Part shown: positions 3,075 through 47,211 of the stretch, one piece after another
Numbering within the stretch: the first letter of the stretch is position 1
Layout: each line of letters begins with the position of its first letter
NCBI GenBank assembly: GCA_024644435.1
Contig: JAHEKZ010000001.1
Span: 1,703-65,702, forward strand
Length of the DNA stretch: 64,000 nt
Direction: 5' to 3'
Source: Actinomycetes bacterium
GTDB lineage: Bacteria; Actinomycetota; Actinomycetes; JAHEKZ01
Made by a program: the position numbers and the translations under genes
Notes under the pieces: generated by a model
What the model saw: only the letters and a program-made list of their open reading frames with translations
Database searches by the model: none
What the model was told of the DNA's origin: nothing

Positions 3075-4312
3075 TCACGCGTCGAGCAGTGAGACCCCGA
3101 GCAGTGCCAGCACCAGCTCCGCCACCTGCCGGGGCGACTGGGGGTCGTCGCCCTCACCTGCCGCCGCCTCGTCAGCCCACGCATCCACCGCCGCCAGCGC
3201 CGCCGGTGAGTCCAGGTCTTGCGCAAGGGCGTGGCGAACGGCCTCGATGACCGGCCCGGCCGATGGCGCCCGATCGGCGGTCGCTGCGAACCTCCAGCGC
3301 AGGTAGCGGTCCTCGCCTCGTGTCAGGTCGTCGTCAGTCCACTCCCAGTCGGTCCGGTAGTGGTGGGCCAGCAGTGACAGGCGAATCGCCATCGGGTTGT
3401 GCCCGTCGTCTCGAAGCCTCGAGACGAACACCAAGTTCCCCTTCGACTTCGACATCTTCTGGCCGTTCAGACCCACCATCCCGGCATGCACGAAATGGTG
3501 GGCGAAGGGCTGCTCGCCCGAGATGAGGTGCGCCTGTGACGTTCCCATCTCGTGGTGCGGGAAGATCAGGTCGCTGCCGCCACCTTGAACGTCAAAGGCC
3601 CGCCCCAGGTAGTGGAGCGCGATCGCTGTGCACTCGATGTGCCACCCGGGGCGGCCGTGACCGAAGTGGGTGTCCCACGCTGGTTCACCAGGACGCTCGG
3701 CCTGCCAGAGCAACGGATCGAGCGCGTCTCGTTTCCCTTCCCGCTCCGGGTCACCCCCGCGTTCGGCGAAGAGCGCGAGCATGGTCTCGCGGGGGTACGA
3801 GCTGACGATGCCGAAGTCGGTGTCCTGTGCCACGGAGAAGTAGATGTCGTCATCGACGCGATAGGCCGCCCCCGAGGTCAGGAGCTCATCGATCCGGTCG
3901 ACCACCAGTGGGATCGACTCAACCGCACCGACGTACTCACGGGGCGGCAGAACGCCCAGCGCAGTCATGTCGTCACGGAAGAGTGCGGTCTCCGCTCTCG
4001 CCAGCTCTTCCCAGTCCTGCCCCGTGGCAACGGCTCTCTCGAGGAGCGGGTCGTCGACGTCTGTGACGTTCTGTACGTAGTGGACCTCATGGCCGGCATC
4101 GAGCCACATCCGTTGCACCAGATCGAACGCCACATAGGTTGCGGCATGGCCTAGATGCGTAGCGTCGTACGGGGTGATGCCGCACACGTAGAGTCGAGCG
4201 ACGGAGTCGGGAGTCGTCGGACGGATGCTCTGCGACGCCGTGTCATAGAGCGACAGCTGGCGGCCTTCCCCTGGGACGGCGGGCACGGGCGGCTGCGTCC
4301 AGGTTTCCACGA
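3075..4312 (-). CDS. mshC: L-cysteine:1D-myo-inositol 2-amino-2-deoxy-alpha-D-glucopyranoside ligase (mycothiol ligase MshC)
   Basis: Class I aaRS HIGH motif ([16 protein letters not shown]) and KMSKS motif. The protein is CysRS-like but lacks the anticodon-binding tail. I trimmed the 528-aa ORF to the GTG at 4310-4312 (VETWTQPP), giving about 412 aa. Confidence 0.85.
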
Positions 4313-4335
4313 GGCGTGAGCCTATCGGGACGCCC

Positions 4336-5046
4336 TCAGAACGGTGGCCAAGGGATCGCCGGCCAGTCGGGGGACGGTTGCGGGTGGGCCCCGTCGGTGA
4401 CCAGACGGCGCGCCCGCTCGACGAGCACCGCAAACTCCTCCTCTGCCAGCAGGTCGTGCAGGACTGCAACCGCGGTATCCCCGGAGGTGGCGCGCTCCAG
4501 CCAGCTCTCGAGGTCGGAGACCAGCGCTGGTGGGATCGGCAGACCCCGCCACTGCCACAACACCGTTCGTAGCTTGTCGTCGACGGCGAAGGAGACACCG
4601 TGGTCGATCCCCCAGATGGATCCGTCCACTGTCGGCAGCAGGTGACCCCCCTTGCGGTCACCGTTGTTGATCAATGCGTCGAACACCGCGATCCGGCGTA
4701 GGGCTTCGTGGTCGCTCTGGATAAGCGCCACCAGATCGACGCTGTCGTCGACGTCGACCCAGCGCTGGACCATGCCCGGCCCGTAGGGACCTTCGCGCCA
4801 CACCGTCGGCGGGACAAAGGACCATCCCAGGGTCTCAGCCACCACGTAGGCCGCCACCTCACGCTGGCTCAACGTGCCGTCGGGGAAGTCCCAGAGTGGC
4901 CTCTCGCCGGCACGTGGTTTGTAGATGACCAGAGGCTCGTCAGGGAGGTCCTTCAACCGACAGAGCAGGCTGCCGTTCGACGCATCGACGAGCTGGCCCA
5001 TGACCTCGAGCTCGCCAGCCCTCAACTCTTCGAGCGTTGATGTCAT
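4336..5046 (-). CDS. SCO1664-family protein (Rv2133c-like, PI3/4-kinase-like fold)
   Basis: Family-typical N-terminus ([19 protein letters not shown]) and conserved synteny with mshC and DUF3090. Confidence 0.65.
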
Positions 5047-5576
5047 TGCCGGCGGTAGCCGTTGGCCCTCGGACAGATGTGTCCCTCTGGGTCGAGCGGC
5101 AACGTACAGAAGGGACAGGGTGGACGCCCAGCGGCGACGACGGTTTCCGCACGGTCGACGAAGGCGCGGGCCGTTGCTCCGGTGATTCTGACTTCCAGGA
5201 TGTCCCCCGTGAGCTCGTCGTCGTCTTCGGCCGGCTCGGACGAGGCCTCGATCAACACGCGGTCACTCTCACCGTCCCAGGCGATGCGCAGGACGGAGAC
5301 CCTGAAGTCTTCCTCGACCGGTGTGCTCAAGGGTGCGTCGTCGCGGTCACCGGGTGCGGCGATCACCGGAATCTGGTGTGATCCAGTACCTCGTCGAGTC
5401 AGCAGGTCGAGCATGGCGTCCAGTCGTTCCGCGAGCACCCGAACCTGCTCCTTCTCCAACGCGGCGCATGTCATGCGGGTGCCGTCAGTGACCTGCAGGA
5501 AGAACGTGCGTTGACCTGGGGGGCCGACCGTCCCCGCAACGAATCGATCGGGATCGACGTACGAGTGCTGGGTCAT
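5043..5576 (-). CDS. DUF3090 family protein (Rv2134c-like)
   Basis: C-terminal CPFCTLPLDPEGHICPR cysteine motif. The 4-nt overlap with the downstream gene suggests translational coupling. Confidence 0.7.
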   Translation of the reverse strand: MTQHSYVDPDRFVAGTVGPPGQRTFFLQVTDGTRMTCAALEKEQVRVLAERLDAMLDLLTRRGTGSHQIPVIAAPGDRDDAPLSTPVEEDFRVSVLRIAWDGESDRVLIEASSEPAEDDDELTGDILEVRITGATARAFVDRAETVVAAGRPPCPFCTLPLDPEGHICPRANGYRRQ

Positions 5577-6286
5577 CGTTTCCTCCTGCTTGGCTGGCTC
5601 GAACCAGCGCCACCGCCGACCACGGCATCCCCCTCGGCTGAACGGCGGCGACCGCGCTTGCGTGGTGTGAGCCCGGACACGTCTCCGCCCGTGTCGTTCA
5701 TGCGTTCCACGAAGGGTCGAGTTGGCGAGTACTGCACCACGCTGAGCGAAGCCGGGTCGACAACGATGCGTTGAAACAGGTCGAGGTGAAGCCCCAACGC
5801 ATCGGCGAGAACCGCTTTGATGACGTCGCCGTGGGAGACGACCGCGTAGAGCGCATCCTTGCCAAGCTCGTCATTCCATCGCCGGATCGCCGCCACGGCA
5901 CGCGCCTGCATCTCGGCCAGGCTCTCAGCGCCTTCGCCGGGAAAACGCGCGGCGCTGGGATGGTGCTGCACGACCTTCCACAATGGCTGTTTGGTGAGGG
6001 CTTTGAGGGGTTCGCCGGTCCAGTCGCCGTAGCGCACCTCAGCCACGTCCTGATCGACGTGGACCGTGACGTCGCGCTCGCCCACAAGGACGCCGGTGGT
6101 CTCGCGGCAGCGTTCCAGGGGGCTGGTTACCACGGCGGTCAGCGGCAGCGACGAGATCCGGGTCGCCAGAACGGTCGCCTGCGCTATCCCCACATCGTCG
6201 AGTTGGACGCCTGGCGTCCAACCGGCGAGCGTGCCGGAAGCATTTGCGGTCGTCCGGCCGTGCCGGACCAAGAGCACTGTTGCCAC
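5573..6286 (-). CDS. Histidine phosphatase family protein (Rv2135c-like phosphomutase-like)
   Basis: RHG catalytic motif at the N-terminus (LLVRHGRTTAN). Confidence 0.75.
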   Translation of the reverse strand: MATVLLVRHGRTTANASGTLAGWTPGVQLDDVGIAQATVLATRISSLPLTAVVTSPLERCRETTGVLVGERDVTVHVDQDVAEVRYGDWTGEPLKALTKQPLWKVVQHHPSAARFPGEGAESLAEMQARAVAAIRRWNDELGKDALYAVVSHGDVIKAVLADALGLHLDLFQRIVVDPASLSVVQYSPTRPFVERMNDTGGDVSGLTPRKRGRRRSAEGDAVVGGGAGSSQPSRRKR

Positions 6287-9886: not shown

Positions 9887-9973
9887 GTCCGAGTGGCGGA
9901 ATTTGGTAGACGCGCTAGCTTGAGGTGCTAGTGCCCGAAAGGGCTTGGGGGTTCAAGTCCCCCCTCGGACACC
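9887..9973 (+). tRNA. tRNA-Leu (anticodon GAG), type II tRNA with a long variable arm
   Basis: GTCCGAGTGGCGGAATTTGGTAGACGCGCTAGCTTGAGGTGCTAG…GGGGTTCAAGTCCCCCCTCGGACACC aligns by eye with canonical bacterial tRNA-Leu. The anticodon loop is TTGAGGT and the acceptor stem is GTCCGAG/CTCGGAC. Confidence 0.85.
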
Positions 9974-10125
9974 GCAGTAAGTCTCCCGATCGGTGTGTCG
10001 CCGTGCTGCGGTGCAGAACCCACGCAGATCTGCGCATCCCGTCATCCAGATGGCCGATCTTCCCCCCTGAAATGCCTGAACCGCTCCGATCACCGGACAA
10101 GCGCTGCGAAGATGGTGCGCTGTTG

Positions 10126-11328
10126 ATGCGACAAGGGGGCGGCGTGGCGGTGCGATGGGCTCTGGTGGTCGTGGTGGCCCTGTCGACGGCAGGCAGCTCA
10201 CTGGTCGCCGGCGTCGCGTCTGCCGAGGTCCCACCGGATGCGGTCTCGGGCTACCTCTACCGAGACATCGACAACGACGGTGTGCGCGACGTGGACGAGC
10301 CTCCCGTGCCCGACGTCGTCATCCGCTCCGGCCGAAAGTCAACAATCACCGATGCCTTCGGCTACTACGAGTTCACCGGACTCACGAACCAGGTGAACCT
10401 TCGCGTCGACACGGGGTGGTTCCGGAGTCAGTGCACGTCCTCCTACTCCGGGCCGTCATCTGGGGCCAAGCACACCGACGCCTGTCCCGACCCAGGCGTG
10501 GGCGCCGGGATCGATCAGGACTTCCGTGTCGTCAACCAGCTCATTACGGCCACAGCTGCACCCGGGACCGAGGCTTCCCTCGGGTTGACGCCGGACTGGG
10601 TGGGCGATGGCTATGACGGCTTCAGCACAGACCCCAGCGCAGCCGTCTCCATCGACGCCGCACTGCGTCTCTCCCCCGGGTACCGCATGCCGGGCGCGGC
10701 CACGGACTGCCAGCGCTTTGTCTGCCGCCCCGGTGAGACTCAGTGGGTACTCGTCCAGTGGCTCAATCAGGGCACCGAGCCGCTGCAGGGAATGCGGGCC
10801 GTCGTCCGTGCACCGGCCGGCTCCTCGATCACCCAAGTCGCACCGTACTACGGCCACGACAAGGCATCAGGGCAGACAGTGACCGGGTTTCGGGTCAAGG
10901 ACGCCAAGTCGGGCACCAAACTCACCAAAGGGTCAAACGGCTGGCTGTCGACGTCATCCAAACGCATCCGGATCACGCTCAAGGGCTCGGTACCCGCCGG
11001 CAGCGAATACCTCACCGCAGTGGCTTTCCTCATCGACAGCGATGCGACCTTCTCAGACGGCAACGGGGATGGGCTTCCTGACTGCTCAGCGGAGACTGGC
11101 GGTGCCTATCCCGATCAGACCTGCCTCCTCGCAACCGACTCTGGTCCTGGTTCCTACGTCGCCTACGGCGCCATCGTCCGGATCAAGAATGCAGTCGACG
11201 CCGACGCCACGACCTGCCCCAAGATCCCGCGCGCATGCCCGGTGAAAGGAGTGCACGACAAGACCAAACCCGGTGACTCCAACGACTCCGGCGCATGGAA
11301 GGTCGACTCGCTCTACCCCCCCGCATAG
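10126..11328 (+). CDS. Secreted Cys-rich protein with an N-terminal SdrD B-like / Cna-B-like domain
   Basis: Signal peptide (VRWALVVVVALSTAGSSLVAGVASAEV), then YLYRDIDNDGVRDVDEPPVPDVVIRSGRKSTITDAFGYYEFTGL, then about 280 aa with eight or more cysteines. The start was trimmed from 9925, which overlaps the tRNA, to the ATG at 10126. Confidence 0.55.
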   Translation: MRQGGGVAVRWALVVVVALSTAGSSLVAGVASAEVPPDAVSGYLYRDIDNDGVRDVDEPPVPDVVIRSGRKSTITDAFGYYEFTGLTNQVNLRVDTGWFRSQCTSSYSGPSSGAKHTDACPDPGVGAGIDQDFRVVNQLITATAAPGTEASLGLTPDWVGDGYDGFSTDPSAAVSIDAALRLSPGYRMPGAATDCQRFVCRPGETQWVLVQWLNQGTEPLQGMRAVVRAPAGSSITQVAPYYGHDKASGQTVTGFRVKDAKSGTKLTKGSNGWLSTSSKRIRITLKGSVPAGSEYLTAVAFLIDSDATFSDGNGDGLPDCSAETGGAYPDQTCLLATDSGPGSYVAYGAIVRIKNAVDADATTCPKIPRACPVKGVHDKTKPGDSNDSGAWKVDSLYPPA

Positions 11329-14148: not shown

Positions 14149-15810
14149 ATGCTCCCCCACCTGACGTGGGTGATCGGTGACCAGACACCGACCGACCACA
14201 TCGTGGTCGAAGGCACCTCGAGGGCACTCTCCGAGGCGGGCTGGCTGGTCGCTGCACACAGCGACGATGGCCCTCGCGGCTCGGCGCTGCTGATCTGGAC
14301 CCGAACCTCGCTCGACGACGAGGCGCGCAGAGCCGTCGCCGAGGCCCGCTCCCATGGCTCACCAATCTTCTTGCTCGGCCCCAGCATCACGGCCGACATC
14401 CCGGAGCTGCGTGAGGCGTCTGGTGTATCCCCCGAGACCTGGGCTCCGTCTCATCTGGCTCGACTGCGGCCGCACGGATCTCAGGTATGGCAAGAGCGCG
14501 TGGCCCCCTCGGGCGGTGCCACCGAGATCCAGACGCCCGTGCTCGCCACCGACAAGGTGCGCGAGTCGGTCGAGATCCGGCTGACGGCACATCTGGGCCT
14601 GACCCCCCACCCCGTGCTCACCTGGAATCCCGAAACCCTTGTCGGTGTCTACTCGGTCATTCCTGACGCGGACGCACCAGAGGAGATCGTGGCCAGCGCC
14701 CGCGTCCTGCACCTCGCGCTCCGTGACGTGCTCTCGATCGACCCTCCTCACGCTGAACCTTTGGTCGTCGGGCTCCTCGGCTTTGGGGCCATCGGGGCCG
14801 AGCACGCCCGCGCGGCCGACGCGCTGCCCGGCCTGCGGCTCGGGATGGTGTGCGATCGGTCCGACGATCGACTCAGCGCGGCACGTGCCCACTTTCCGGG
14901 AGTCACGACCACGACCAGTCCTGAGCGCCTCCTCTCCGACGGCGAGGTCGACGTCGTGGTGGTCTCGACGCCTCCCGACTCGCACGCGGCCTGGGCAGAA
15001 CGTGTCATGAATGCGGGCAAGCACGTGATCGTGGAAAAACCCTTCGCGCTGACGATCGACGAGTCCGATCAGGTTCTGGCAACTGCGCACGCCACCGGGC
15101 GCCGAGCTGTCGTCTACCAGAACAGGCGCTTCGACCCCGACTTCCTCACCATCAGCAAGCTCCTCGACCGGGGATCTCTGGGCGAGGTCTTTCACCTCGA
15201 GGCCTTCATCGGTGGGTACGGCCACCCCTGCAACTACTGGCACTCCGACGAGGCGGTGTCGGGCGGCGCGCTCTACGACTGGGGGTCGCACCTGATCGAC
15301 CAGATCCTCAGCCTGCACCCCGGCCCCATCCACCACGTCACCTGCATCGAGCACAAGCGCAAGTGGCACGACGTCACCAATGCTGACCACACGAGCATGT
15401 CGCTGCGCTTCCGTGACGGCAGTGAAGCCGTCTTCGTGCACTCAGATCTTGCAGCTGCACTCAAACCTCGGTGGTACCTGCTCGGCACCGAGGGGGCTGT
15501 CACCAGCACATGGCGCCATGAGGCCGTGATCGCGCGCAACGCCATCGGAACCCTCGATGAGGACGTGCTGGCAGTCACCGACTCCCCTCCCGAGCTGACC
15601 CTCGTCGACCCGCTCGGTTCGCAGACCGTTCTCAGCCAGGTGAACGCCGAGCCGCACGCCTTCCACCGGCAGTTCGTCGACGACGTACGGTACGCCTGGC
15701 CCATGACGGTCACCGCAGAGCAGTCGCGCCGGGTCGTCGCCGTGATGGAGGCGGCCCGCGCCTCGGCACGCGCCGGGGGCACCCCCGTTCCCGTCAACGG
15801 CGACGCGTGA
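14149..15810 (+). CDS. Gfo/Idh/MocA-family NAD(P)-dependent oxidoreductase with an about 190-aa N-terminal extra domain (possibly ThuA/GATase1-like)
   Basis: C-terminal Rossmann motif GLLGFGAIGAEHA…EKPFALT is Gfo/Idh/MocA-like. The N-terminal segment (ALLIWTRTSLDDEARRAVAEARSHGSPIFLLGP…PVLTWNPE) resembles the ThuA-type GATase1-like fold; this is low-confidence inference. Confidence 0.75.
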   Translation: MLPHLTWVIGDQTPTDHIVVEGTSRALSEAGWLVAAHSDDGPRGSALLIWTRTSLDDEARRAVAEARSHGSPIFLLGPSITADIPELREASGVSPETWAPSHLARLRPHGSQVWQERVAPSGGATEIQTPVLATDKVRESVEIRLTAHLGLTPHPVLTWNPETLVGVYSVIPDADAPEEIVASARVLHLALRDVLSIDPPHAEPLVVGLLGFGAIGAEHARAADALPGLRLGMVCDRSDDRLSAARAHFPGVTTTTSPERLLSDGEVDVVVVSTPPDSHAAWAERVMNAGKHVIVEKPFALTIDESDQVLATAHATGRRAVVYQNRRFDPDFLTISKLLDRGSLGEVFHLEAFIGGYGHPCNYWHSDEAVSGGALYDWGSHLIDQILSLHPGPIHHVTCIEHKRKWHDVTNADHTSMSLRFRDGSEAVFVHSDLAAALKPRWYLLGTEGAVTSTWRHEAVIARNAIGTLDEDVLAVTDSPPELTLVDPLGSQTVLSQVNAEPHAFHRQFVDDVRYAWPMTVTAEQSRRVVAVMEAARASARAGGTPVPVNGDA

Positions 15811-16787
15811 CCGGTCTCGCCACAGACGTTGTCCGCTGGGGCTTCCTCGGGGCGGGCTTCGTGGCCGCTCAGGCTCTGGCGCCGGCAGTCCATGCCAGCC
15901 CCCATGCCCGACTGCACTCCGTCGCAGCACGTGACGAAGGGCGGGCTGCCGCCCTCGAACCCTCCGGTCGCGTCACGACCCGTTATGAAGACGTTCTTGA
16001 CGACGACGACGTGGACGCCGTGTACATCTCGCTCACCAACGAGGTACACCTGCCGTGGATTCTGGCCGCGCTGGATCGCGGCAAGCACGTCCTGTGCGAA
16101 AAGCCGATCACACTCACGGCCGGCGAGTGCCGCACGGCTTTCGCCGCAGCCCGAACGGCCGACCGACTACTAGTCGAGGCTGCCTGGACGCAGTGGCATC
16201 CCAGAACCCGACGGCTCGGCACCTTGGTGAGGCGAGGCGACCTCGGGACCGTGCGATCCATCACCGCCGCCTTCACCTTCGACGGAGTCCCCGACACGAA
16301 CTTCCGGCTCGACCCGGCACGGGGCGGTGGTGCACTGCTTGACGTGGGGCCGTATCTGCTCAGACCGGTGGCCAACTGGGTCGGGGACGAGTGGCGGCTG
16401 GAGGCGGTCGAGCGTGAAACAAGTCAGCGTGGCGTCGACCTCCGGACCCGAGCAACCCTGTCGACCGCGGCCGGGGCCCGGGCGCAGGTTGTCGGCTCAT
16501 TCCTGGACCCGGAGCACCAGGTGCTCCGGGTCGACGGCGAGGCCGCGTCTGCCGAGTGCGGCCCGCCGGCGTTCACCAGCTGGCACAAGCTGGCCACCGT
16601 CGACGTGTCTGACGGCGTGCGCACCTGGTCCGAGACCTTCCCCAGCTGCGACGCCTACGAGCTGATGGTGAGCTCGGTGTCACGGCGGATCAACGGCGAC
16701 GACCAGGCGTTCGTGATCTCTGAGGACGAGTCGCTGGCGTGCATGAGGCTGATCGACCTGATCCGCGAGCCGCAGGGCCGGTCGTGA
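15807..16787 (+). CDS. Gfo/Idh/MocA-family oxidoreductase
   Basis: WGFLGAGFVAAQALAP…VLCEKP. The GTG start overlaps the upstream stop (GTGA). Confidence 0.8.
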   Translation: MTGLATDVVRWGFLGAGFVAAQALAPAVHASPHARLHSVAARDEGRAAALEPSGRVTTRYEDVLDDDDVDAVYISLTNEVHLPWILAALDRGKHVLCEKPITLTAGECRTAFAAARTADRLLVEAAWTQWHPRTRRLGTLVRRGDLGTVRSITAAFTFDGVPDTNFRLDPARGGGALLDVGPYLLRPVANWVGDEWRLEAVERETSQRGVDLRTRATLSTAAGARAQVVGSFLDPEHQVLRVDGEAASAECGPPAFTSWHKLATVDVSDGVRTWSETFPSCDAYELMVSSVSRRINGDDQAFVISEDESLACMRLIDLIREPQGRS

Positions 16788-17650
16788 CATCACTCGACTG
16801 GCCGCTCGACACCTGGGTCGACCCACGGCCCGTTCCCGTCGCCGATGGGACGCAACTCGCTGTGCGAGTCCTCGACGGTGAGGCCCGCCCCTTCGTCTTG
16901 GCGCACGGTCTGGCGTCCAACGCCCTGCTCTGGCGCAACGTTGCCCAGACGCTCAACGCCCACGGCCACGCAGTCGCCGTGGCCGACCTGCGAGGTCATG
17001 GCCGCTCAGAGCGACCGGATGTGGGCCACAGCACGGCTCAGGCAGCGGATGACCTCAACGCTGTCTCGGCGGCGTTGGGGTGGCAGGGGCGGCGACCTGT
17101 CGTGGTCGGACAGTCGTGGGGCGGCAATGTGGTGCTCCGTGCAGCGCGTGACCAGGCGGTGTGGGGTGGGGTGGCCGCGGTCGACGGCGGATGGATTCAC
17201 CTCGGCAACCGATTCCCCTCGTTCGAGGCGTGTTGGACGCAGCTCGCGCCGCCAGACCTGAGCGACCGGCCACCCGCTGAGGTGCTGGCCTGGATCTCGT
17301 CGATGGTGTCCGACTGGCCCGACGGTGCCGCAGCAGCCATCGCCGGCAACCTGGAGCTCCGGGCGGGCTCGGTCCGCAACCGGCTCGACCGTGCGCATCA
17401 CCGCTCAATCCTGCACTCTCTGTGGGCCGACGACCCGACCGACATGTACGCCGACATCGCGGTACCCACCCACCTGATGGTCGCGGGCACGTCGACCTCA
17501 ACCGATGTCGACCGCGCCCAGTCGGCGATTCCCGACGCCACGGTCACCTGGTACCCCGACGCCCACCACGACCTCCATCTCCAACATCCGCAGACAGTCT
17601 CTGATCAGCTGCTAGAGCTGGTTCAGCGCGTGAAAGGATCGACAGCGTGA
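16784..17650 (+). CDS. Alpha/beta-fold hydrolase
   Basis: HG…LW oxyanion region (VLAHGLASNALLW) and GQSWGG nucleophile elbow. The start is either the GTG at 16784 (GTGA overlap with the upstream stop) or the ATG at 16739. Confidence 0.75.
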   Translation: MTSLDWPLDTWVDPRPVPVADGTQLAVRVLDGEARPFVLAHGLASNALLWRNVAQTLNAHGHAVAVADLRGHGRSERPDVGHSTAQAADDLNAVSAALGWQGRRPVVVGQSWGGNVVLRAARDQAVWGGVAAVDGGWIHLGNRFPSFEACWTQLAPPDLSDRPPAEVLAWISSMVSDWPDGAAAAIAGNLELRAGSVRNRLDRAHHRSILHSLWADDPTDMYADIAVPTHLMVAGTSTSTDVDRAQSAIPDATVTWYPDAHHDLHLQHPQTVSDQLLELVQRVKGSTA

Positions 17651-18921
17651 GCCGTATCGTGCTGATGGGGTCGGGAGAGACTGCGCCTGCCATGGTCAAG
17701 ACGCACCGCGCGGTCATCGCGGCGGCCGGTGATGGGCCGTGCGTCATGCTCGACACCCCGTACGGATTTCAGGTCAACGCCGACGACCTGACCAGACGCA
17801 CGCTCCGGTACTTCGACGAGTCCGTCGGCCAGCGAGTCGTCCCCGCCCAGTGGCGTCATCGTGACGCGCCGTCTGCTGATCGCGAGCGGGTTCTGGCCCA
17901 GCTCAGCCAGGCATCGTGGCTGTTCGCCGGTCCGGGCAGTCCCACCTATGCACTAGACCAGTGGCGTGACACGGCTCTGCACGGCGCCATAGGCGACGTG
18001 GTCGCTCGAGGGGGCACCGTCGTCCTCGGCAGCGCGGCGGCCGTCACGGCGGGTCGGTGGGCCCTGCCCGTGTACGAGATCTACAAGGTCGGCGTCGCTC
18101 CGTACTGGGCCGACGGTCTCGACCTGCTCAGTCGCTTCCTCGACCTCGAGGTCGCCGTTGTCCCCCACTTCGACAACGCCGAGGGCGGAACGTACGACAC
18201 CCGCTTCTGCTACCTCGGTGAAGGGCGTCTCGACTACCTCGAGCGCCAGCTACCCGACAAGGCCGCAGTCCTCGGCGTTGACGAGCACACCGCGCTGGTC
18301 ATCGACGTGGCCAGCGGCACTGTCGAGGTCTCGGGGGCCGGTCATGTGACGGTCCGGCGGCACGGCGCAGCGGAGCAGATCCCCGCGGGGAGCCTTCTCA
18401 CCGTCACTGAGCTACGCGGGATCGCGACCGGCGTCGCCCATGTTCCGCCGTCCAGCACGTCGGCCACAGTCGACACAGAAGCGGCGATGGGTGGTGAAAC
18501 ACCGTCCCTCGACCGCGAGGTGCAGACGTTACGAGCCGACTTCGACGAGGCCATGTCCGCCGGCGAGGTCGATACCGCGGTCGCCGTCGTCCTGGCGCTC
18601 GACGACTCGATCGCCGCCTGGTCGGCCGACACCCTTCAAAGCGACGCGCTCGATCAGGCGCGCCGCGAGCTGCGTGCCATGGTCGTCCGCCTCGGAGAGC
18701 TGGCCAAGGTGGGCACCGCCGACCCTGCGGTCACCGTGGGGCCCCTGGTCGAGGCCGTCCTGGCAGCTCGTCGCCAGGCCAGGGTCGAGAAGGACTTCGC
18801 GCTCAGCGATCGTCTGCGGGACGTGCTGCTCGGCGGTGGCGTCACGGTGCAGGACACCCCCGAGGGAGCGCAATGGTCGTTCAACCTCCCGAACGACGAA
18901 GGACCCGGCTTCTCACCGTGA
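17647..18921 (+). CDS. Fusion protein: peptidase-S51/cyanophycinase-like (GATase1-like) N-domain plus a cysteinyl-tRNA synthetase C-terminal-like domain
   Basis: N-terminus has IVLMGSGE…WLFAGPGSPTYAL (S51-like). The C-terminus (VEAVLAARRQARVEKDFALSDRLRDVLLGGGVTVQDTPEGAQWSF) closely resembles the extreme C-terminal helix-hairpin of bacterial CysRS. The GTG start overlaps the upstream stop. Confidence 0.5.
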   Translation: MSRIVLMGSGETAPAMVKTHRAVIAAAGDGPCVMLDTPYGFQVNADDLTRRTLRYFDESVGQRVVPAQWRHRDAPSADRERVLAQLSQASWLFAGPGSPTYALDQWRDTALHGAIGDVVARGGTVVLGSAAAVTAGRWALPVYEIYKVGVAPYWADGLDLLSRFLDLEVAVVPHFDNAEGGTYDTRFCYLGEGRLDYLERQLPDKAAVLGVDEHTALVIDVASGTVEVSGAGHVTVRRHGAAEQIPAGSLLTVTELRGIATGVAHVPPSSTSATVDTEAAMGGETPSLDREVQTLRADFDEAMSAGEVDTAVAVVLALDDSIAAWSADTLQSDALDQARRELRAMVVRLGELAKVGTADPAVTVGPLVEAVLAARRQARVEKDFALSDRLRDVLLGGGVTVQDTPEGAQWSFNLPNDEGPGFSP

Positions 18922-19341: not shown

Positions 19342-20850
19342 TCAGGTGAGGTCGGTCGCCAATGGCGGGGACACGCCGGCCGAGTCGATCGTCTTGAGCT
19401 CCAGCGACTGCAGCAACCGGGGGTCGTGCGGGGCGACCATCACCGTGACTTTCAGCCGTTTGGAGCCCCGCTCCCCCTGCATCAGCCAGGTCATCGACCC
19501 AGGCGATGGGCGAGTCGGGGGGTCGTCGGTCGACGCCAAGGTGCCATGGTCCCGCCGGAGCTGGCCCCAGACGGCCACCCGCTCCGCCCAGGGAACATCC
19601 CTCTCGACGTTGTCGGCACACATCTGTCGCAGCAGGCGAGCTGCCGGCCCGTCCGGGTCGTCGAGGGACAGCCAGTCGGTGACTGTCACCCGAGCAGCAT
19701 CGAGCGCCGGAAAAGGCAGCGGTGGCGCGTGCCGGTCTGCCCCGAGCTGGACCACGAGGTCGCCCAGCGCCCCAGTCGCCACCGTCGACATCGGGGCGTA
19801 GGTCCCGTTGGCGAGCGCGACCACCCCCAGGCCCGATGCCGGGTGCCAGCGCATGTGCGACCCGAAGCCTGGATAGCCACCGGAGTGGTGAACCGAACGC
19901 CCCCAGTCCCGGAAGTCCTCGAAGAGCCCAAACCCGTACCCGGTGAGCTCCGGTGCCGCCCCCCCACCTCGGCCGGCCGTGGCGGCGACCAGCCGCTGCG
20001 TGACCTGCATCTCGCGCACCGAGGACTGTCGCAGATGCGGCAACGAGATGTCGGACCACTGCTCGTCGTCATCGGCAGCCTGGAAGAGCCCCACCCACCG
20101 CGCAAGGTCGCGGATGCTGCTCAACACACCACCCATCGGCGAGAACGCGCCAGAGCCAGCGATGGGTTCTTCGGCCCACCCCGTGGTTCGCCTGACGTAC
20201 CCGGCGGCCCGGTTCGCCGGCAGGTCATCGAGCTGGTAGCCCGAGGACGCCAGGCCGAGCGGAAGAAGCAACCGTTCGGCGACCACCTGCGAGTAGGGCT
20301 GCCCGGTGGCGGACTCCACGACCAGGCCGAGAATCGCGTAGCCGAGATTGGAGTACTCGAACCGCTTGCCCGGGGCCAACGACGGCCTCACGCCTGAGCC
20401 GAGCAGCTGACGGAAGGCGGGGATCGCCAGATCCTGCTGACGATCACCCCATGGGTCGTCGGTCAGGAACCCCCCACCCATGGTGAGCAGATGGCGGATC
20501 GTGAGAGCGGAAGCACCGGCTCCCGATGTGAGCTCCGGGACGAACTCGACCACCGGTGCGTCGAGGGCGAACGCCCCCTCGTCGCGCAGGCTCAGGACTG
20601 TGGCGGCGGTGAAGCTCTTGGTCATCGACGCGATGCGGAAGATGGTGTCCGCGTCCGGGGCAGATCCGGCTCCCGGTCCTTCCGCTGATAGGTCCCGATC
20701 GCCAAGGCCCCTGCAGTGGACAACCTGGCCGTCCATGACGACCGCGTAGACCAGCCCGGGGGCGCGCCCGGCCTCCATCGCCGCATCGAAGTGGGGGTCG
20801 ACCACCGCCGCGATCGACGCGGCATCGGAGCTGGTCAGGGGTGTGGACAC
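19342..20850 (-). CDS. Serine hydrolase, beta-lactamase/DD-peptidase (class C-like) family, with an about 150-aa C-terminal extension
   Basis: SxxK motif (ASMTKSF) and YSN motif (FEYSNLGY). Trimmed to the GTG at 20848-20850. The longer ORF would overlap the divergent NlpC/P60 gene. Confidence 0.75.
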   Translation of the reverse strand: MSTPLTSSDAASIAAVVDPHFDAAMEAGRAPGLVYAVVMDGQVVHCRGLGDRDLSAEGPGAGSAPDADTIFRIASMTKSFTAATVLSLRDEGAFALDAPVVEFVPELTSGAGASALTIRHLLTMGGGFLTDDPWGDRQQDLAIPAFRQLLGSGVRPSLAPGKRFEYSNLGYAILGLVVESATGQPYSQVVAERLLLPLGLASSGYQLDDLPANRAAGYVRRTTGWAEEPIAGSGAFSPMGGVLSSIRDLARWVGLFQAADDDEQWSDISLPHLRQSSVREMQVTQRLVAATAGRGGGAAPELTGYGFGLFEDFRDWGRSVHHSGGYPGFGSHMRWHPASGLGVVALANGTYAPMSTVATGALGDLVVQLGADRHAPPLPFPALDAARVTVTDWLSLDDPDGPAARLLRQMCADNVERDVPWAERVAVWGQLRRDHGTLASTDDPPTRPSPGSMTWLMQGERGSKRLKVTVMVAPHDPRLLQSLELKTIDSAGVSPPLATDLT

Positions 20851-20923
20851 GGACCAAGGGTGCCACGTGTGACGATGCCCCGTCGGTCGACTCGGGAGGT
20901 CGCGGCTCCACCTCGCGGCGTCA

Positions 20924-21772
20924 ATGACCGATGATGCTCCTATGAGCAGAGTTCCGTGGCCGGTGTTCGCCGCCAGGCTAGCGCCACCCGCGCGGGCGGC
21001 CTTGGTGATGGCCCTGGCCCTGCTTCTGACACTGCCGTTCGCTCTGGTCGTCCCCCAGCCAGTGCACGCCGGCAGCAGCGACCCATACCTCTCCGACGAC
21101 GTCCCCAGGGCCCGCGGATGCATCGTGCTCGGACGCGCCTGGGCAGGTGTGAAGGTATCGCTGGTCCAGCAGCGACTGGGAACGACCCACGAGCTCGAGC
21201 GGTATGGATCGGACACCCAGCGGGCCGTATCGGCGTTTCAAGCACGCCGTGCCCTCCGGGTGACTGGCAAGGTCAATCGGCCGACCTGGAAGGCCCTGGG
21301 CTTCACCCGTTCCTTCTGCATGGACCGCTTCACCGTTCAACCAGCAGTGTCTGCACCGGTGTCGGCCAACGAGCGGATCGAGGCGATGGTCAGCTGGGCC
21401 CGTGAGCAGGTGGGCCGCCGCTACATCTGGGGGGGAGCCGGACCTGTGGGTTACGACTGCTCCGGACTCGCGCTCCAGGCCATGTACGCCGGTGGGCGGG
21501 TTCTGCCGACAGTCACGACCTACCAGCACCAGCGTCGTGACTTTGGCACGGCATCGGCCATATTCGACTCCGGGATGCGACGTGTACCGCTCGACCAACG
21601 ACGGCGTGGCGACCTCATCTTCTACGGCCCGACCGGGTCCATCACCCACATGGCGATCTACCTCGGGCACGGGCGCGTACTGGAGGCGGTCCGACCCCAG
21701 GTACGTCGCTCATCGATGTGGGGCCACGGCGTTCCGGTCAAACCCCGCGTGGTCCGTCCGTTCGGGCGCTAG
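20924..21772 (+). CDS. Secreted NlpC/P60 (C40) peptidoglycan endopeptidase with a peptidoglycan-binding domain
   Basis: Signal peptide, then a PG_binding_1-like repeat (SDTQRAVSAFQARRALRVTGKVNRPTWKALGF), then catalytic Cys (RYIWGGAGPVGYDCSGL) and His (ITHMAIYLG). Confidence 0.85.
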   Translation: MTDDAPMSRVPWPVFAARLAPPARAALVMALALLLTLPFALVVPQPVHAGSSDPYLSDDVPRARGCIVLGRAWAGVKVSLVQQRLGTTHELERYGSDTQRAVSAFQARRALRVTGKVNRPTWKALGFTRSFCMDRFTVQPAVSAPVSANERIEAMVSWAREQVGRRYIWGGAGPVGYDCSGLALQAMYAGGRVLPTVTTYQHQRRDFGTASAIFDSGMRRVPLDQRRRGDLIFYGPTGSITHMAIYLGHGRVLEAVRPQVRRSSMWGHGVPVKPRVVRPFGR

Positions 21773-43132: not shown

Positions 43133-45722
<2,590 letters not shown>

Positions 45723-45726
<4 letters not shown>

Positions 45727-46055
45727 GACAGATCACTGCTCCTGGTGGTGACGAAGACGGTTCCGTCTTCGACTTTGACGGGATAGACGGGTACGGGATC
45801 GGTAGCTGGCAGGGAGAGCGGTTTGCCGGTACGAAGGTCGAACTGAGAGCCGTGCAGCCAGCACTCGAGCGAACAGCCGTCGACCTCACCCTCCGACAGC
45901 GACACCTGGCCATGGGAGCAGATGTCGTTGATCGCGAACACCTCTCCCTCGGTGAGCACGACAGCAATGGTGACGTCGTCGACGACGGCCTTGTGCGGCT
46001 CACCGTCAGCCAAGTCGTCGAGGGTGAACACCGCGACGAAGTTCTCTGTGGTCAC
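45723..46055 (-). CDS. Rieske [2Fe-2S] domain protein embedded in the suf operon
   Basis: CSHGQVSL…CWLHGSQF Rieske ligand boxes. Confidence 0.8.
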
Positions 46056-47209: not shown

Positions 47210-47211
47210 TG

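What the first reader, a model, noticed from the sequence alone, without database searches (positions are those of the whole stretch)
17647..18921. Unusual domain fusion: cyanophycinase/peptidase-S51-like domain fused to a cysteinyl-tRNA synthetase C-terminal-like tail
The N-terminal about 260 aa (IVLMGSGE…WLFAGPGSPTYAL) look like the S51/GATase1-like dipeptidase fold. The last about 60 aa (ARRQARVEKDFALSDRLRDVLLGGGVTVQDTPEGAQWSF) closely mimic the conserved C-terminal helix-hairpin of bacterial CysRS. In CysRS that element contributes to tRNA anticodon binding. The MshC encoded in the same window has lost this element. Such a fusion could deliver a Cys-handling or tRNA/nucleic-acid-binding module to an amidohydrolase. 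I do not recognise this architecture as a described family.
Basis: partly seen in the sequence, partly recalled or inferred. Interest (0 to 1): 0.55.

Follow-up and report, generated by a model that had tools for sequence, protein, structure and literature searches.

The report
Hydrolase fused to tRNA-reading domain
This is a real, widespread but unstudied bacterial enzyme that joins a serine-hydrolase domain to the part of cysteinyl-tRNA synthetase that reads the tRNA-Cys anticodon; in a second phylum its gene sits inside a mycothiol-like pathway that lacks the usual cysteine ligase, which points to a possible tRNA-dependent way of making a protective thiol.

Summary
ORF 17647-18921 (+, 424 aa) is intact. 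Residues 1-265 form an S51 (cyanophycinase/PepE-like) fold with an invariant Ser129-His174-Glu213 triad. A disordered linker of variable length follows. Residues ~288-413 are homologous to the helical-bundle plus anticodon-binding region of CysRS, so the match is about 130 aa, not 60.

It is not a one-off. More than 7,000 near-full-length homologues exist in Actinomycetota and Desulfobacterota, named only 'cyanophycinase-like exopeptidase', 'peptidase E' or 'CysS/YqeB C-terminal domain-containing protein'. I found no paper on it.

The equivalents of the E. coli CysRS anticodon-contact residues (R427/W432/D436/R439, here R379/F384/D388/R391) are as conserved as the catalytic triad.

Gene context is the main new evidence. 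In Actinomycetota an alpha/beta-hydrolase lies directly upstream in 54 of 72 loci. In Desulfobacterota the gene heads an operon with a GNAT, an MshA-like GT4 and a BshB/MshB-like deacetylase, sometimes plus Ino1 and a phosphatase, and with no MshC or BshC. The same GFO/IDH/MocA pair is linked to it in both phyla.

Best reading (inferred, confidence about 0.4): an enzyme docked on tRNA-Cys that acts on Cys-tRNA, probably adding Cys to an amino-sugar-inositol. Novelty: new variant of a known kind, possibly more.

The parts
17647..18921 (+). Whole gene ('T'): S51 hydrolase domain, linker, and CysRS-type helical bundle plus anticodon-binding domain; 424 aa
   Evidence: ORF; full-length homologues; both Pfam domains
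17647..18441 (+). Residues 1-265: S51 (cyanophycinase/PepE-like) alpha/beta domain with the GSGETAP, GPGSP, GSAAA, PHF and DEHTA motifs
   Evidence: Foldseek 6nqc E 7.8e-13, TM 0.82; profile alignment to 6nqc; invariant columns
18031..18033 (+). Ser129 codon: predicted nucleophile (GS129AAA)
   Evidence: 134/134 conserved. In register with cyanophycinase Ser132 (GTS132AGA; 7uqw is the S132DAP covalent complex) via 6nqc and the stand-alone S51
18166..18168 (+). His174 codon (PH174F): predicted general base
   Evidence: 134/134 conserved; aligns to the PHF / DQHF motif of S51 structures
18283..18285 (+). Glu213 codon (VDE213HTA): third triad member
   Evidence: 129/134 conserved; aligns to the GIDE(V/D/Q)T motif of S51 structures
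18442..18507 (+). Residues 266-287: disordered inter-domain linker
   Evidence: pLDDT below 50 for 269-283; linker length 6-94 residues (median 24) across the family
18508..18741 (+). Residues 288-365: helical region homologous to the CysRS helical-bundle domain
   Evidence: TIGR00435 alignment 285-411 to 336-464; profile alignment to E. coli CysRS 341-459; helices 288-305, 308-325, 329-356. Conservation is much looser than in the tail
18742..18885 (+). Residues 366-413: CysS_C anticodon-binding alpha/beta domain (two helices plus a beta-hairpin)
   Evidence: Pfam PF23493 above the gathering cut-off; secondary structure H360-380, H384-396, E399-404, E407-412
18781..18819 (+). Codons of R379, F384, D388 and R391: equivalents of the E. 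coli CysRS anticodon contacts R427, W432, D436 and R439
   Evidence: Residue mapping from the phmmer alignment to 1li5/1u0b. Contact residues named in PMC13449415. Conserved 132, 131 (aromatic), 132 and 133 of 134; in the Desulfobacterota clade 21/21, except R379 which is R17/K4
16739..17650 (+). Alpha/beta-hydrolase (303 aa, GQSWGG nucleophile elbow), translationally coupled partner gene
   Evidence: Pfam Abhydrolase_1/6; no equivalog match; directly upstream on the same strand in 54 of 72 actinobacterial loci and in L089/L090
14149..15810 (+). Long GFO/IDH/MocA oxidoreductase (553 aa) with a ~200-aa N-terminal extension (weakly ThuA-like in the Desulfobacterota orthologue)
   Evidence: Pfam; weak inositol-2-dehydrogenase similarity; linked to T in 15 of 80 actinobacterial loci and in many Desulfobacterota loci
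15807..16787 (+). Short GFO/IDH/MocA oxidoreductase (326 aa), always paired with the long one
   Evidence: Pfam; co-occurrence with T in both phyla

Best explanation
T is a two-module enzyme.

Module 1 (residues 1-265) is a catalytically competent S51-type serine enzyme. Its Ser129-His174-Glu213 triad should work through an acyl-enzyme intermediate.

Module 2 (residues ~288-413) derives from the helical-bundle and anticodon-binding domains of cysteinyl-tRNA synthetase. It keeps the residues that read the GCA anticodon, so it docks the protein on tRNA-Cys. A flexible linker of variable length would let the catalytic domain reach the acceptor end and attack the ester bond of Cys-tRNA(Cys).

The most likely outcome is transfer of the cysteinyl group, via Ser129, to the free amine of a deacetylated amino-sugar-inositol acceptor (GlcN-Ins or a relative). 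T would then be a tRNA-dependent functional analogue of the ATP-dependent cysteine ligases MshC and BshC. In Actinomycetota such as this window, which also have MshC, T would do the same chemistry together with its alpha/beta-hydrolase partner and the GFO/IDH/MocA pair, on a related or modified acceptor.

Shown here: the fold, the domain homology, residue conservation and gene linkage.
Inferred: tRNA binding (my estimate about 0.6), action on the aminoacyl ester (about 0.5), and Cys transfer to a GlcN-Ins-like acceptor (about 0.3).
For: 1. Active-site integrity. Ser129 and His174 are conserved in 134/134 and Glu213 in 129/134 representatives clustered at 50% identity. They are in register with the proven cyanophycinase nucleophile Ser132.

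2. The C-domain is CysRS-derived: Pfam above threshold, TIGR00435 over 127 residues, profile against E. coli CysRS at E 6.7e-8, and 1u0b (CysRS bound to tRNA-Cys) as the only significant Foldseek hit.

3. The four E. coli CysRS residues targeted as anticodon contacts (R427, W432, D436, R439; PMC13449415) correspond to R379, F/W/Y384, D388 and R391. These are conserved in 131-133 of 134 sequences, and in 21/21 Desulfobacterota members with R379 as R or K. That matches the catalytic residues, while the adjacent helical bundle drifts. This is selection on the RNA-contact surface in a protein that does not aminoacylate.

4. The fusion is obligate in the family. The linker is disordered and 6-94 residues long, as expected for a tethered targeting module.

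5. Desulfobacterota operon: T -> (GFO pair) -> GNAT/FemAB-like -> GT4 -> PIG-L, with or without Ino1 and a phosphatase on the other strand. 44 of 58 loci have GFO-L or GNAT immediately downstream. 18 of 24 loci with at least 6 kb downstream carry GT4 and GNAT.

6. The neighbours score best on thiol-pathway models. GT4 hits mycothiol_MshA at 307-362 bits, with the next family at about 118-129. PIG-L hits BshB1/BshB2/Mca/MshB. Ino1 hits mycothiol_INO1 at 414 bits. None of the look-up loci whose genes were listed with Pfam families (L082, L091-L094) shows a tRNA-synthetase-type (MshC-like) gene; the metagenome loci were not screened for MshC or BshC. That leaves T as the candidate for the Cys-adding step.

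7. The same GFO/IDH/MocA pair is linked to T in both phyla.

8. In Acidimicrobiia and low-GC actinobacteria, T follows clpS-aosR(DUF2017). In M. tuberculosis that locus carries the AosR-controlled cysteine-synthesis genes (PMC8280819).
Against: - There is no experimental data on any member.
- All characterised S51 enzymes are hydrolases of Asp-containing peptides, not transferases and not tRNA-dependent (established knowledge; PDB titles).
- Cys specificity rests on four mapped contact residues. No tRNA-Cys gene is adjacent in about 110 loci, while tRNA-Glu/Asp/Phe genes follow T in many actinobacterial loci.
- The operon's GNAT has FemAB-like similarity and could itself be the aa-tRNA-dependent transferase.
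- The MshA/MshB/Ino1-like neighbours all score below the curated equivalog cut-offs, so the product need not be mycothiol-like.
- Actinomycetota, including this window, already have MshC, so a Cys-ligase role there would be redundant or different.
- A minor subclade pairs T with a PNP_UDP_1 phosphorylase-family gene instead.
- Whether the linker geometry lets Ser129 reach the 3' end was not tested.
Confidence: 0.4

Rival explanations
1. T is an ordinary S51 peptidase or amidase, for example one that cleaves an Asp- or Cys-containing dipeptide or amide during turnover of a thiol conjugate or storage compound. The CysRS-like domain no longer binds RNA and serves as an oligomerisation, protein-interaction or small-molecule-sensing module.
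For: - All characterised S51 members are hydrolases.
- A stand-alone cyanophycinase-like S51 paralogue lies just upstream of T in 11 of 49 Desulfobacterota loci and next to it in L081.
- The actinobacterial partner is another hydrolase.
Against: The residues that contact the anticodon in CysRS are conserved at 97-99%, as strongly as the catalytic triad, while the rest of the C-terminal region drifts. That pattern is hard to explain without a retained RNA-contact function. Sitting at the head of a biosynthetic operon also fits a synthetic step better than a degradative one.
Confidence: 0.25
2. T is a tRNA-Cys-specific deacylase or quality-control factor. It docks on tRNA-Cys and hydrolyses damaged or wrong aminoacyl groups (for example oxidised, persulfidated or S-thiolated Cys, or a mischarged amino acid). 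This would be analogous to free-standing trans-editing proteins, and would be induced or needed under oxidative stress.
For: - A conserved hydrolase triad together with conserved anticodon contacts.
- Position behind clpS-aosR, an oxidative-stress and cysteine locus, in basal Actinomycetota.
- Hydrolysis is the default chemistry of the fold.
Against: This does not explain the tight operon linkage with MshA-like, PIG-L and GNAT genes or with the GFO pair. CysRS is not known to need editing (established knowledge). No known editing factor has this fold (general knowledge; not checked against the literature here).
Confidence: 0.15
3. The FemAB-like GNAT in the operon is the true aminoacyl-tRNA-dependent transferase. 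T is an accessory that recruits or presents tRNA-Cys, or that trims a by-product or precursor with its S51 domain.
For: The GNAT hits PF04339 FemAB_like and PF13480 and is about 320-360 aa, the size of double-GNAT Fem transferases. GNAT-fold enzymes are an established aa-tRNA-dependent class (PMC12945691).
Against: The GNAT is absent from L093 and from all 80 actinobacterial loci, although T, with its conserved triad, is present. The FemAB_like hits are weak, barely at threshold. The GNAT could equally be the MshD-type N-acetyltransferase (established knowledge of the mycothiol pathway).
Confidence: 0.12
4. The fusion is an artefact: a frameshift, a mis-assembly, or two adjacent genes read as one.
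For: None beyond the prior that unusual architectures are sometimes artefacts.
Against: - The ORF is continuous with uniform coding GC3.
- Thousands of co-linear full-length homologues exist from independent assemblies in two phyla.
- 132 of 150 representatives carry both domains, and the exceptions are themselves the artefacts.
Confidence: 0.01

Closest known systems
Peptidase family S51: cyanophycinase (CphB), aspartyl dipeptidase PepE, and the acI-B1 'cyanophycinase-like exopeptidase' 6nqc
   Same: Same alpha/beta fold (Foldseek E 1e-8 to 8e-13, TM up to 0.82). Same Ser-His-Glu triad motifs in register.
   Different: - Sequence identity is only 15-24%.
- It scores below the Pfam S51 gathering cut-off in this protein (15 against 23.9 bits) and far below the cyanophycinase equivalog cut-off (17.7 against 126.6).
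- It has its own invariant motifs (GSGETAP, GPGSP, YEIYK, DTRFCYLG).
- It carries a C-terminal CysRS-type domain that no characterised S51 enzyme has.
- Its operon context is biosynthetic rather than catabolic.
Cysteinyl-tRNA synthetase (CysRS), C-terminal helical-bundle and anticodon-binding domains (Pfam CysS_C, PDB 1u0b)
   Same: Homologous over about 130 residues. The anticodon-contact residues R427/W432/D436/R439 are retained as R379/F-W-Y384/D388/R391. The C-terminus has the same helix-helix-hairpin topology.
   Different: There is no Rossmann catalytic domain and no tRNA-synt_1e Pfam hit, so it cannot aminoacylate. The predicted helix packing does not superpose rigidly on 1u0b (TM 0.34).
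MshC (mycothiol) and BshC (bacillithiol) cysteine ligases
   Same: T occupies the operon position of the missing 'C' enzyme, next to MshA-like GT4, MshB/BshB-like deacetylase, a GNAT, and sometimes Ino1. MshC is also derived from CysRS; it kept the catalytic half, whereas T kept the tRNA-reading half.
   Different: There is no sequence or fold relationship to the MshC catalytic domain, which occupies cysS model positions 1-315, whereas T matches only positions 336-464. The mechanism would be tRNA-dependent acyl transfer, not ATP-dependent adenylation. The function is inferred only.
Aminoacyl-tRNA-dependent transferases (FemXAB/GNAT-fold enzymes, L/F-transferase, CDPS, PEARLs, aaRS-like AcmF/SbzA)
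   Same: The proposed logic is the same: use an aminoacyl-tRNA as an activated amino-acid donor outside translation (PMC12945691).
   Different: None of the known classes has an S51 fold, and the review does not mention anticodon recognition (the word 'anticodon' does not occur in its text). The known GNAT enzymes contact the acceptor stem.
Free-standing trans-editing deacylases (YbaK, ProXp, AlaX, DTD)
   Same: These are hydrolases that act on aminoacyl-tRNA esters and gain specificity from tRNA recognition (established knowledge; PMC3973320 listed).
   Different: The folds are unrelated. They do not carry aaRS anticodon-binding domains of this type, and they are not embedded in sugar or thiol biosynthetic operons.

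Membership tests
Peptidase family S51 (MEROPS S51 / Pfam PF03575) | Class-I glutamine-amidotransferase-like alpha/beta fold shared with PepE and cyanophycinase | tested here: met
   Foldseek of the pLDDT-85 model: 6nqc E 7.8e-13, TM 0.82; 7uqv, 6a4r, 3en0, 1fy2 at E 1e-8 to 1e-11
Peptidase family S51 (MEROPS S51 / Pfam PF03575) | Ser-His-Glu catalytic triad in the conserved motifs (G-x-S-A-G, P/Q-H-F, D-E-x-T) | tested here: met
   Ser129 134/134, His174 134/134, Glu213 129/134. In register with 6nqc and with cyanophycinase Ser132
Peptidase family S51 (MEROPS S51 / Pfam PF03575) | Score above Pfam's gathering threshold | tested here: not met
   15.0 bits against a cut-off of 23.9 for the window protein. 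Desulfobacterota members are borderline: 22.7 and 24.0 bits
Cyanophycinase (TIGR02069 equivalog) | Score above the curated equivalog cut-off | tested here: not met
   17.7 bits against a cut-off of 126.6, matching only residues 205-237
Peptidase family S51 (MEROPS S51 / Pfam PF03575) | Hydrolysis of alpha- or beta-aspartyl peptide bonds | not testable with these tools
   Needs an enzyme assay
Cysteinyl-tRNA synthetase | Class-I Rossmann catalytic domain with HIGH and KMSKS motifs | tested here: not met
   No tRNA-synt_1e hit. The cysS model matches only positions 336-464 of 466. The only KMSKS motif in the window belongs to MshC
Cysteinyl-tRNA synthetase | C-terminal anticodon-binding domain (Pfam CysS_C PF23493) | tested here: met
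   25.6-30.7 bits against a cut-off of 23. Precomputed PF23493 on most homologues. Profile against E. coli CysRS at E 6.7e-8
Cysteinyl-tRNA synthetase | Anticodon-contact residues (E. coli R427, W432, D436, R439) | tested here: met
   Mapped to R379, F384, D388, R391. Conserved in 131-133 of 134 and in 21/21 with one R/K position
Cysteinyl-tRNA synthetase | Rigid-body structural superposition of the C-terminal region on CysRS | tested here: inconclusive
Cysteinyl-tRNA synthetase | Physical binding of tRNA-Cys | not testable with these tools
   Needs EMSA, filter binding or a complex structure
MshC (TIGR03447) / mycothiol cysteine ligase | Homology to the MshC/CysRS adenylating domain | tested here: not met
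   T has no such domain. The genuine MshC is elsewhere in the window, at 3075-4331 on the minus strand, 651 bits
MshC / BshC (functional analogue only) | Encoded with the A (GT4) and B (PIG-L deacetylase) enzymes of a GlcN-based thiol pathway | tested here: met
   Met for the Desulfobacterota clade only: 18 of 24 loci with enough flank carry GT4. Best models are MshA, BshB1/MshB and INO1, all below equivalog cut-offs. Not met in the window or in the 80 actinobacterial loci
Aminoacyl-tRNA-dependent transferases (GNAT/Fem, CDPS, PEARL, aaRS-like) | One of the known catalytic folds | tested here: not met
   The catalytic domain is S51. The known classes are listed in PMC12945691

The most novel reading that the evidence does not exclude
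T defines a new class of aminoacyl-tRNA-dependent enzyme. An S51-fold serine catalyst is steered by a CysRS-derived anticodon reader. It takes cysteine from Cys-tRNA(Cys) and ligates it to a GlcN-inositol-type acceptor. This would give Desulfobacterota, and as a second route many Actinomycetota, a mycothiol-like low-molecular-weight thiol made without MshC or BshC. It would also mean that CysRS was split twice in evolution: its catalytic half became MshC, and its tRNA-reading half became part of T.
Probability: 0.3. Interest if true: 0.9.

Novelty: new variant of a known kind. Interest (0 to 1): 0.72.

Why it matters
Low-molecular-weight thiols (glutathione, mycothiol, bacillithiol) are central to redox defence and to drug and toxin resistance. 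The way cysteine is attached differs between them and, to my knowledge, is still unresolved for bacillithiol (BshC).

This finding has three implications:

1. A conserved enzyme that couples a hydrolase/transferase fold to a tRNA-Cys reader, placed exactly where the cysteine ligase is missing in an MshA/MshB/Ino1-like operon of sulfate-reducing Desulfobacterota, would be a new link between translation and redox metabolism.
2. It would imply mycothiol-like chemistry outside Actinobacteria.
3. It would add a new fold to the short list of aminoacyl-tRNA-dependent enzymes.

Even if the transferase idea is wrong, a family of thousands of proteins in which CysRS anticodon-contact residues are conserved as tightly as a catalytic triad is a well-defined, directly testable target for tRNA biology. 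For genome annotation, the current names ('peptidase E', 'cyanophycinase-like exopeptidase') are probably misleading.

Tried and rejected
1. Frameshift or two-gene artefact: rejected. Homologues are co-linear.
2. Physical or operonic link between T and the window's MshC: rejected. They are about 13 kb apart on opposite strands, and MshC sits in its classic SCO1664/TIGR03847/MSMEG_4193 neighbourhood.
3. Other C-terminal domains fused to this S51 module, such as other aaRS anticodon domains, which would have been strong support for tRNA targeting: none found. The apparent variants were off-frame junk, truncations or a chimera.
4. YqeB as a control for whether the contact residues are merely structural: E. 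coli YqeB has no detectable similarity to the family C-domain profile, so the control is uninformative.
5. tRNA-Cys gene adjacent to T: not found in about 110 loci.
6. AFDB50 fold search: library unavailable.
8. Literature: no paper holds 'cyanophycinase-like' together with CysRS. The single full-text match for '6NQC' is an unrelated poplar genomics paper. Nothing was found on tRNA-dependent mycothiol synthesis or on MshA/MshB in Desulfobacterota. A search for the NCBI name failed on syntax.
9. Specific identity for the alpha/beta-hydrolase partner: only generic esterase, haloperoxidase and dehalogenase similarity, with no equivalog.
10. mec-cysO-cysM downstream of T in the clpS-aosR loci: not seen in the annotated contexts.


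Full report
**1. The observation**

The window contains an intact ORF at 17647-18921 (+), 424 aa with a GTG start. Its codon-position GC profile is typical of real genes in this 67% GC sequence (GC3 0.82). The GTG overlaps the TGA of the upstream gene (GTGA) and is preceded by AAAGGA at a spacing of 8 nt.

Pfam finds CysS_C (PF23493, 'cysteinyl-tRNA ligase anticodon binding domain') at residues 368-410. It scores 25.6 bits for the whole protein and 30.7 bits for the tail alone, against a gathering cut-off of 23. It also finds a sub-threshold Peptidase_S51 match (15 against 23.9 bits). NCBIfam's cysS model aligns residues 285-411 to model positions 336-464 of 466 (E 2e-8; 2e-9 for the C-terminal half alone). 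The CysRS-like part is therefore about 130 residues, covering the helical bundle plus the alpha/beta anticodon-binding domain, and not only the last 60.

**2. It is a family, not an accident**

A word-indexed search found 7,613 proteins at E <= 1e-3. The best 120 cover 97-100% of the query at 53-92% identity and are 407-451 aa long. An exhaustive search of 1.84 billion cluster representatives found 465 clusters at E <= 1e-30 and 2,209 at E <= 1e-3.

Of the top 150 representatives, 132 carry both domains. Of the other 18, eight are off-frame Arg/Pro-rich translations, several are short or truncated at a contig end, one is a chimera, and one (P0248) has an obvious but divergent CysRS tail. No alternative C-terminal domain was found. 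The fusion is effectively obligate.

Species-representative genomes with the gene number at least 591. They span Actinomycetes (Kineosporia, Phytohabitans, Dactylosporangium, Rugosimonospora, Frankiaceae, Nanopelagicales, Mycobacteriales MAGs) and Acidimicrobiia (Salinilacustrithrix, Ferrithrix). A second large clade lives in Desulfobacterota (Desulfobacteraceae, Syntrophobacteria), and a few members occur in Dormibacteria and Chloroflexota MAGs.

Database names are generic: 'cyanophycinase-like exopeptidase', 'peptidase E', 'hypothetical protein', 'Type 1 glutamine amidotransferase-like domain-containing protein' and 'CysS/YqeB C-terminal domain-containing protein'. I found no paper on the family.

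**3. Anatomy**

An AlphaFold2 model built on 45 sequences is confident (pLDDT 85.4). It shows an alpha/beta domain (residues 1-262), a disordered linker (269-283), five helices (288-396) and a terminal beta-hairpin (399-412).

Foldseek against the PDB places the N-domain firmly in peptidase family S51: 6nqc, the acI-B1 'cyanophycinase-like exopeptidase' (E 7.8e-13, TM 0.82), pseudo-CphB 7uqv, PepE 6a4r/1fy2, and cyanophycinase 3en0/7uqw.

The motifs G-S129-A-A-A, P-H174-F and D-E213-H-T align with CSAGA / PHF / DEVT of 6nqc. Through the stand-alone S51 paralogue they also align with GTS132AGA / DQHF / DEDT of cyanophycinase. The nucleophile Ser132 of cyanophycinase is documented by the covalent S132DAP complex 7uqw (title). 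In 134 sequences clustered at <= 50% identity, Ser129 and His174 are invariant and Glu213 is present in 129. The enzyme is therefore very probably catalytically active.

It is nevertheless not a cyanophycinase or a PepE by curated thresholds. It also has its own invariant motifs: GSGETAP, GPGSP, PVYEIYK and DTRFCYLG.

**4. The C-terminal domain**

A family profile hits CysRS chains only: 6ujd at 2.7e-8, E. coli 1li5/1u0b residues 341-459 at 6.7e-8, 3tqo at 7e-8 and 8qhp at 3.6e-6.

A CysRS engineering paper names the E. coli residues Arg427, Trp432, Asp436 and Arg439 as its mutagenesis targets in the anticodon-binding domain, with Arg427 hydrogen-bonding O6 of G34 (PMC13449415). In the phmmer alignment these correspond to R379, F384, D388 and R391.

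| Position | Conservation in 134 representatives |
|---|---|
| R379 | 132 |
| 384 | aromatic in 131 (W58/F42/Y31) |
| D388 | 132 |
| R391 | 133 |
| R375 | 133 |
| D403 | 132 |
| W410 | 126 |

In 21 Desulfobacterota members, R375, D388 and R391 are invariant, every sequence has Trp at position 384, and R379 is R or K. By contrast, the preceding helical bundle is poorly conserved and of variable length.

Selection is thus concentrated on the surface that reads the anticodon in CysRS. The linker ranges from 6 to 94 residues (median 24), as expected for a tether.

**5. Gene context in Actinomycetota**

In the window the gene is the last of four co-directional, overlapping or nearly abutting genes:
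- a 553-aa GFO/IDH/MocA oxidoreductase with a ~200-aa N-terminal extension (14149-15810);
- a 326-aa GFO/IDH/MocA oxidoreductase (15807-16787);
- an alpha/beta-hydrolase (16739-17650);
- T.

The surrounding genes are unrelated: PurU, TetR, CspA, a beta-lactamase-like protein, NlpC/P60, a SpoU methylase, TauE and others.

Across 80 reference loci, the alpha/beta-hydrolase is directly upstream on the same strand in 54 of the 72 with enough flank. The GFO pair is linked in 15-16. The hydrolase has a GQSWGG elbow but only generic similarities.

In Acidimicrobiia (15 of the 80 loci) and in low-GC actinobacterial MAGs, the string is ctaA-clpS-DUF2017-(GFO-GFO)-(hydrolase)-T, sometimes with the DUF2017 stop overlapping the T start. 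T is then followed by tRNA-Glu(UUC), often with tRNA-Asp and tRNA-Phe.

DUF2017 is AosR (Rv1332). It is the oxidative-stress regulator that, together with SigH, induces mec-cysO-cysM in the M. tuberculosis clpS-aosR-Rv1333-mec-cysO-cysM operon (PMC8280819).

The window itself has no clpS near T. Its MshC is about 13 kb away on the other strand.

**6. Gene context in Desulfobacterota (the most informative result)**

Five independent look-ups gave the following layouts:
- T -> GNAT/FemAB-like -> GT4 -> PIG-L, with His_Phos_1 and inositol-phosphate synthase on the opposite strand (L082, L091, L092). L091 and L092 also have a stand-alone S51 gene upstream of T.
- T -> GFO(550 aa, ThuA-like N-terminus) -> GFO(336 aa) -> [GNAT] -> GT4 -> PIG-L (L093, L094).

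In 80 further metagenome loci:
- 44 of 58 with at least 1.5 kb downstream have the long GFO or the GNAT immediately after T;
- 18 of 24 with at least 6 kb downstream carry GNAT and GT4, and 12 carry PIG-L;
- a stand-alone S51 lies upstream in 11 of 49.

Against NCBI's curated models:
- the GT4 scores 307-362 bits on mycothiol_MshA, with the next family at about 118-129;
- the deacetylase scores best on BshB1, BshB2, Mca and MshB;
- the synthase scores 414 bits on mycothiol_INO1;
- the phosphatase weakly resembles the MSMEG_4193 family that flanks mshC in actinobacteria, including this window.

All are below equivalog cut-offs, so these are relatives rather than orthologues.

The gene logic matches the mycothiol and bacillithiol pathways (established knowledge): A is a GT4, B is a PIG-L deacetylase that exposes the GlcN amine, C is a cysteine ligase, and D is a GNAT N-acetyltransferase. 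No tRNA-synthetase-type (MshC-like) gene appears in the Pfam-annotated look-up loci, and I did not screen the loci for BshC. T sits at the head of the operon. The unusual GFO pair is shared with the actinobacterial loci, which ties the two clades' contexts together.

A minor subclade instead has T followed by a PNP_UDP_1 phosphorylase-family gene and a URO-D-like gene.

**7. Mechanism proposed**

Three things are shown: an intact acyl-enzyme-type catalytic centre, a retained tRNA(Cys)-reading surface on a flexible tether, and linkage to genes that build a deacetylated amino-sugar-inositol. Together they suggest that T docks on Cys-tRNA(Cys), takes the cysteinyl group onto Ser129, and passes it to the sugar amine. 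It would be a tRNA-dependent counterpart of MshC and BshC.

The steps after 'domain homology and conservation' are inference. A 2026 review lists the known aa-tRNA-dependent enzyme classes as GNAT/Fem-like, CDPS, LanB-like PEARLs and aaRS-like enzymes (PMC12945691). An S51-fold enzyme with an anticodon reader would be new.

Rivals are:
- a plain peptidase or amidase with a non-RNA role for the C-domain;
- a tRNA-Cys deacylase or quality-control factor, which fits the clpS-aosR context;
- an accessory role to a Fem-like GNAT.

Points against the favoured model:
- all known S51 enzymes are hydrolases;
- there would be redundancy with MshC in Actinomycetota;
- Cys specificity is inferred from four residues;
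- tRNA-Glu/Asp/Phe genes, not tRNA-Cys, neighbour T;
- the structural match is weak;
- the reach of the linker is untested.

**8. Verdict**

The family is known to databases only as generic or probably mis-named entries.

I rate it a new variant of a known kind: an S51 serine enzyme carrying an aaRS anticodon-binding module. I give about 0.3 probability that it represents a categorically new tRNA-dependent route to a mycothiol-like thiol. Interest 0.72.

Noticed in passing
L022, L024, L028, L029, L034, L050, L057, L063, L074, L076, L077 (about 50-300 nt after T; about 0.8 kb in L074); L083, L085, L087, L089: In Acidimicrobiia and low-GC actinobacterial loci, T is immediately followed on the same strand by tRNA-Glu(UUC), often with tRNA-Asp(GUC) and tRNA-Phe(GAA). 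No tRNA-Cys gene is near T anywhere. This may be plain synteny, but it is notable for a protein with a tRNA-binding domain and a fold whose known members are Asp-specific.
   Followed up: partly
L083 6205-7001, L087 6174-7011, L089 2637-3395; 15 of L001-L080: clpS followed by DUF2017 (AosR/Rv1332, the oxidative-stress regulator of mec-cysO-cysM) lies upstream of T, sometimes with the DUF2017 stop overlapping the T start. The window's own lineage has lost this linkage: ctaA is at 54232-55296, and no clpS is in the window.
   Followed up: partly
L091 7172-7858, L092 7081-7767; L081 5209-5922 (divergent strand): A stand-alone cyanophycinase-like S51 protein (~228 aa; 78 bits on TIGR02069, below the cut-off of 127) sits just upstream of T in 11 of 49 Desulfobacterota loci and next to T in a Dormibacteria MAG. 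It may be a partner or paralogous subunit.
   Followed up: partly
L154, L155, L158, L159, L165, L170 (gene directly downstream of T): A minor non-actinobacterial subclade pairs T with a PNP_UDP_1 phosphorylase-family protein (~250 aa). In L154, L155 and L159 a URO-D-like protein lies downstream, and in L155, L158, L159 and L165 a divergent TPP enzyme lies upstream. This is a third, unexplained context.
   Followed up: partly
window 3075-6286 (minus strand): A classic mshC neighbourhood: MshC (TIGR03447, 651 bits), an SCO1664-family protein (TIGR03843), TIGR03847, and an MSMEG_4193-family phosphomutase-like protein (TIGR03848). The phosphatase in the Desulfobacterota T operon weakly resembles this last family.
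   Followed up: partly
window 14149-14760; L094 6911-7510: The long GFO/IDH/MocA protein has a ~200-aa N-terminal extension. It is weakly ThuA-like in the Desulfobacterota orthologue (26.7 bits, below cut-off) and has no Pfam hit in the window copy. ThuA belongs to the same class-I amidotransferase-like superfamily as S51.
   Followed up: no
window 9887-9973 and ORF 9925-11328: tRNA-Leu(GAG) overlaps the 5' end of the mechanically called 467-aa ORF (weak SdrD_B hit), so that ORF's real start must lie further downstream. The same tRNA-Leu is upstream in the closest relatives L002-L004.
   Followed up: no
window 19342-21216 (minus strand) against 20924-21772 (plus strand): The 624-aa beta-lactamase-family ORF has a ~135-aa N-terminal extension before the Pfam match begins. 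This extension overlaps the NlpC/P60 gene on the other strand, so the true start is probably internal.
   Followed up: no
window 43658-48792 (minus strand): A SUF iron-sulfur cluster assembly operon: SufB and SufD cores, an ABC ATPase, and a class-V aminotransferase/cysteine desulfurase. It is another cysteine-consuming system in the window, not linked to T.
   Followed up: no
Literature: PMC5768760, FRAAL5155: A Frankia alni protein annotated 'Peptidase S51, dipeptidase E' (FRAAL5155) was 1.9-fold up under PEG/desiccation stress. Frankiaceae carry T (L017), but I could not check whether FRAAL5155 is a family member.
   Followed up: no
window 18529-18873 (minus strand) and 17953-18168 (minus strand): Antisense shadow ORFs inside T have high GC3 (0.79-0.82), as is usual in high-GC genomes. 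They have no support as genes.
   Followed up: no
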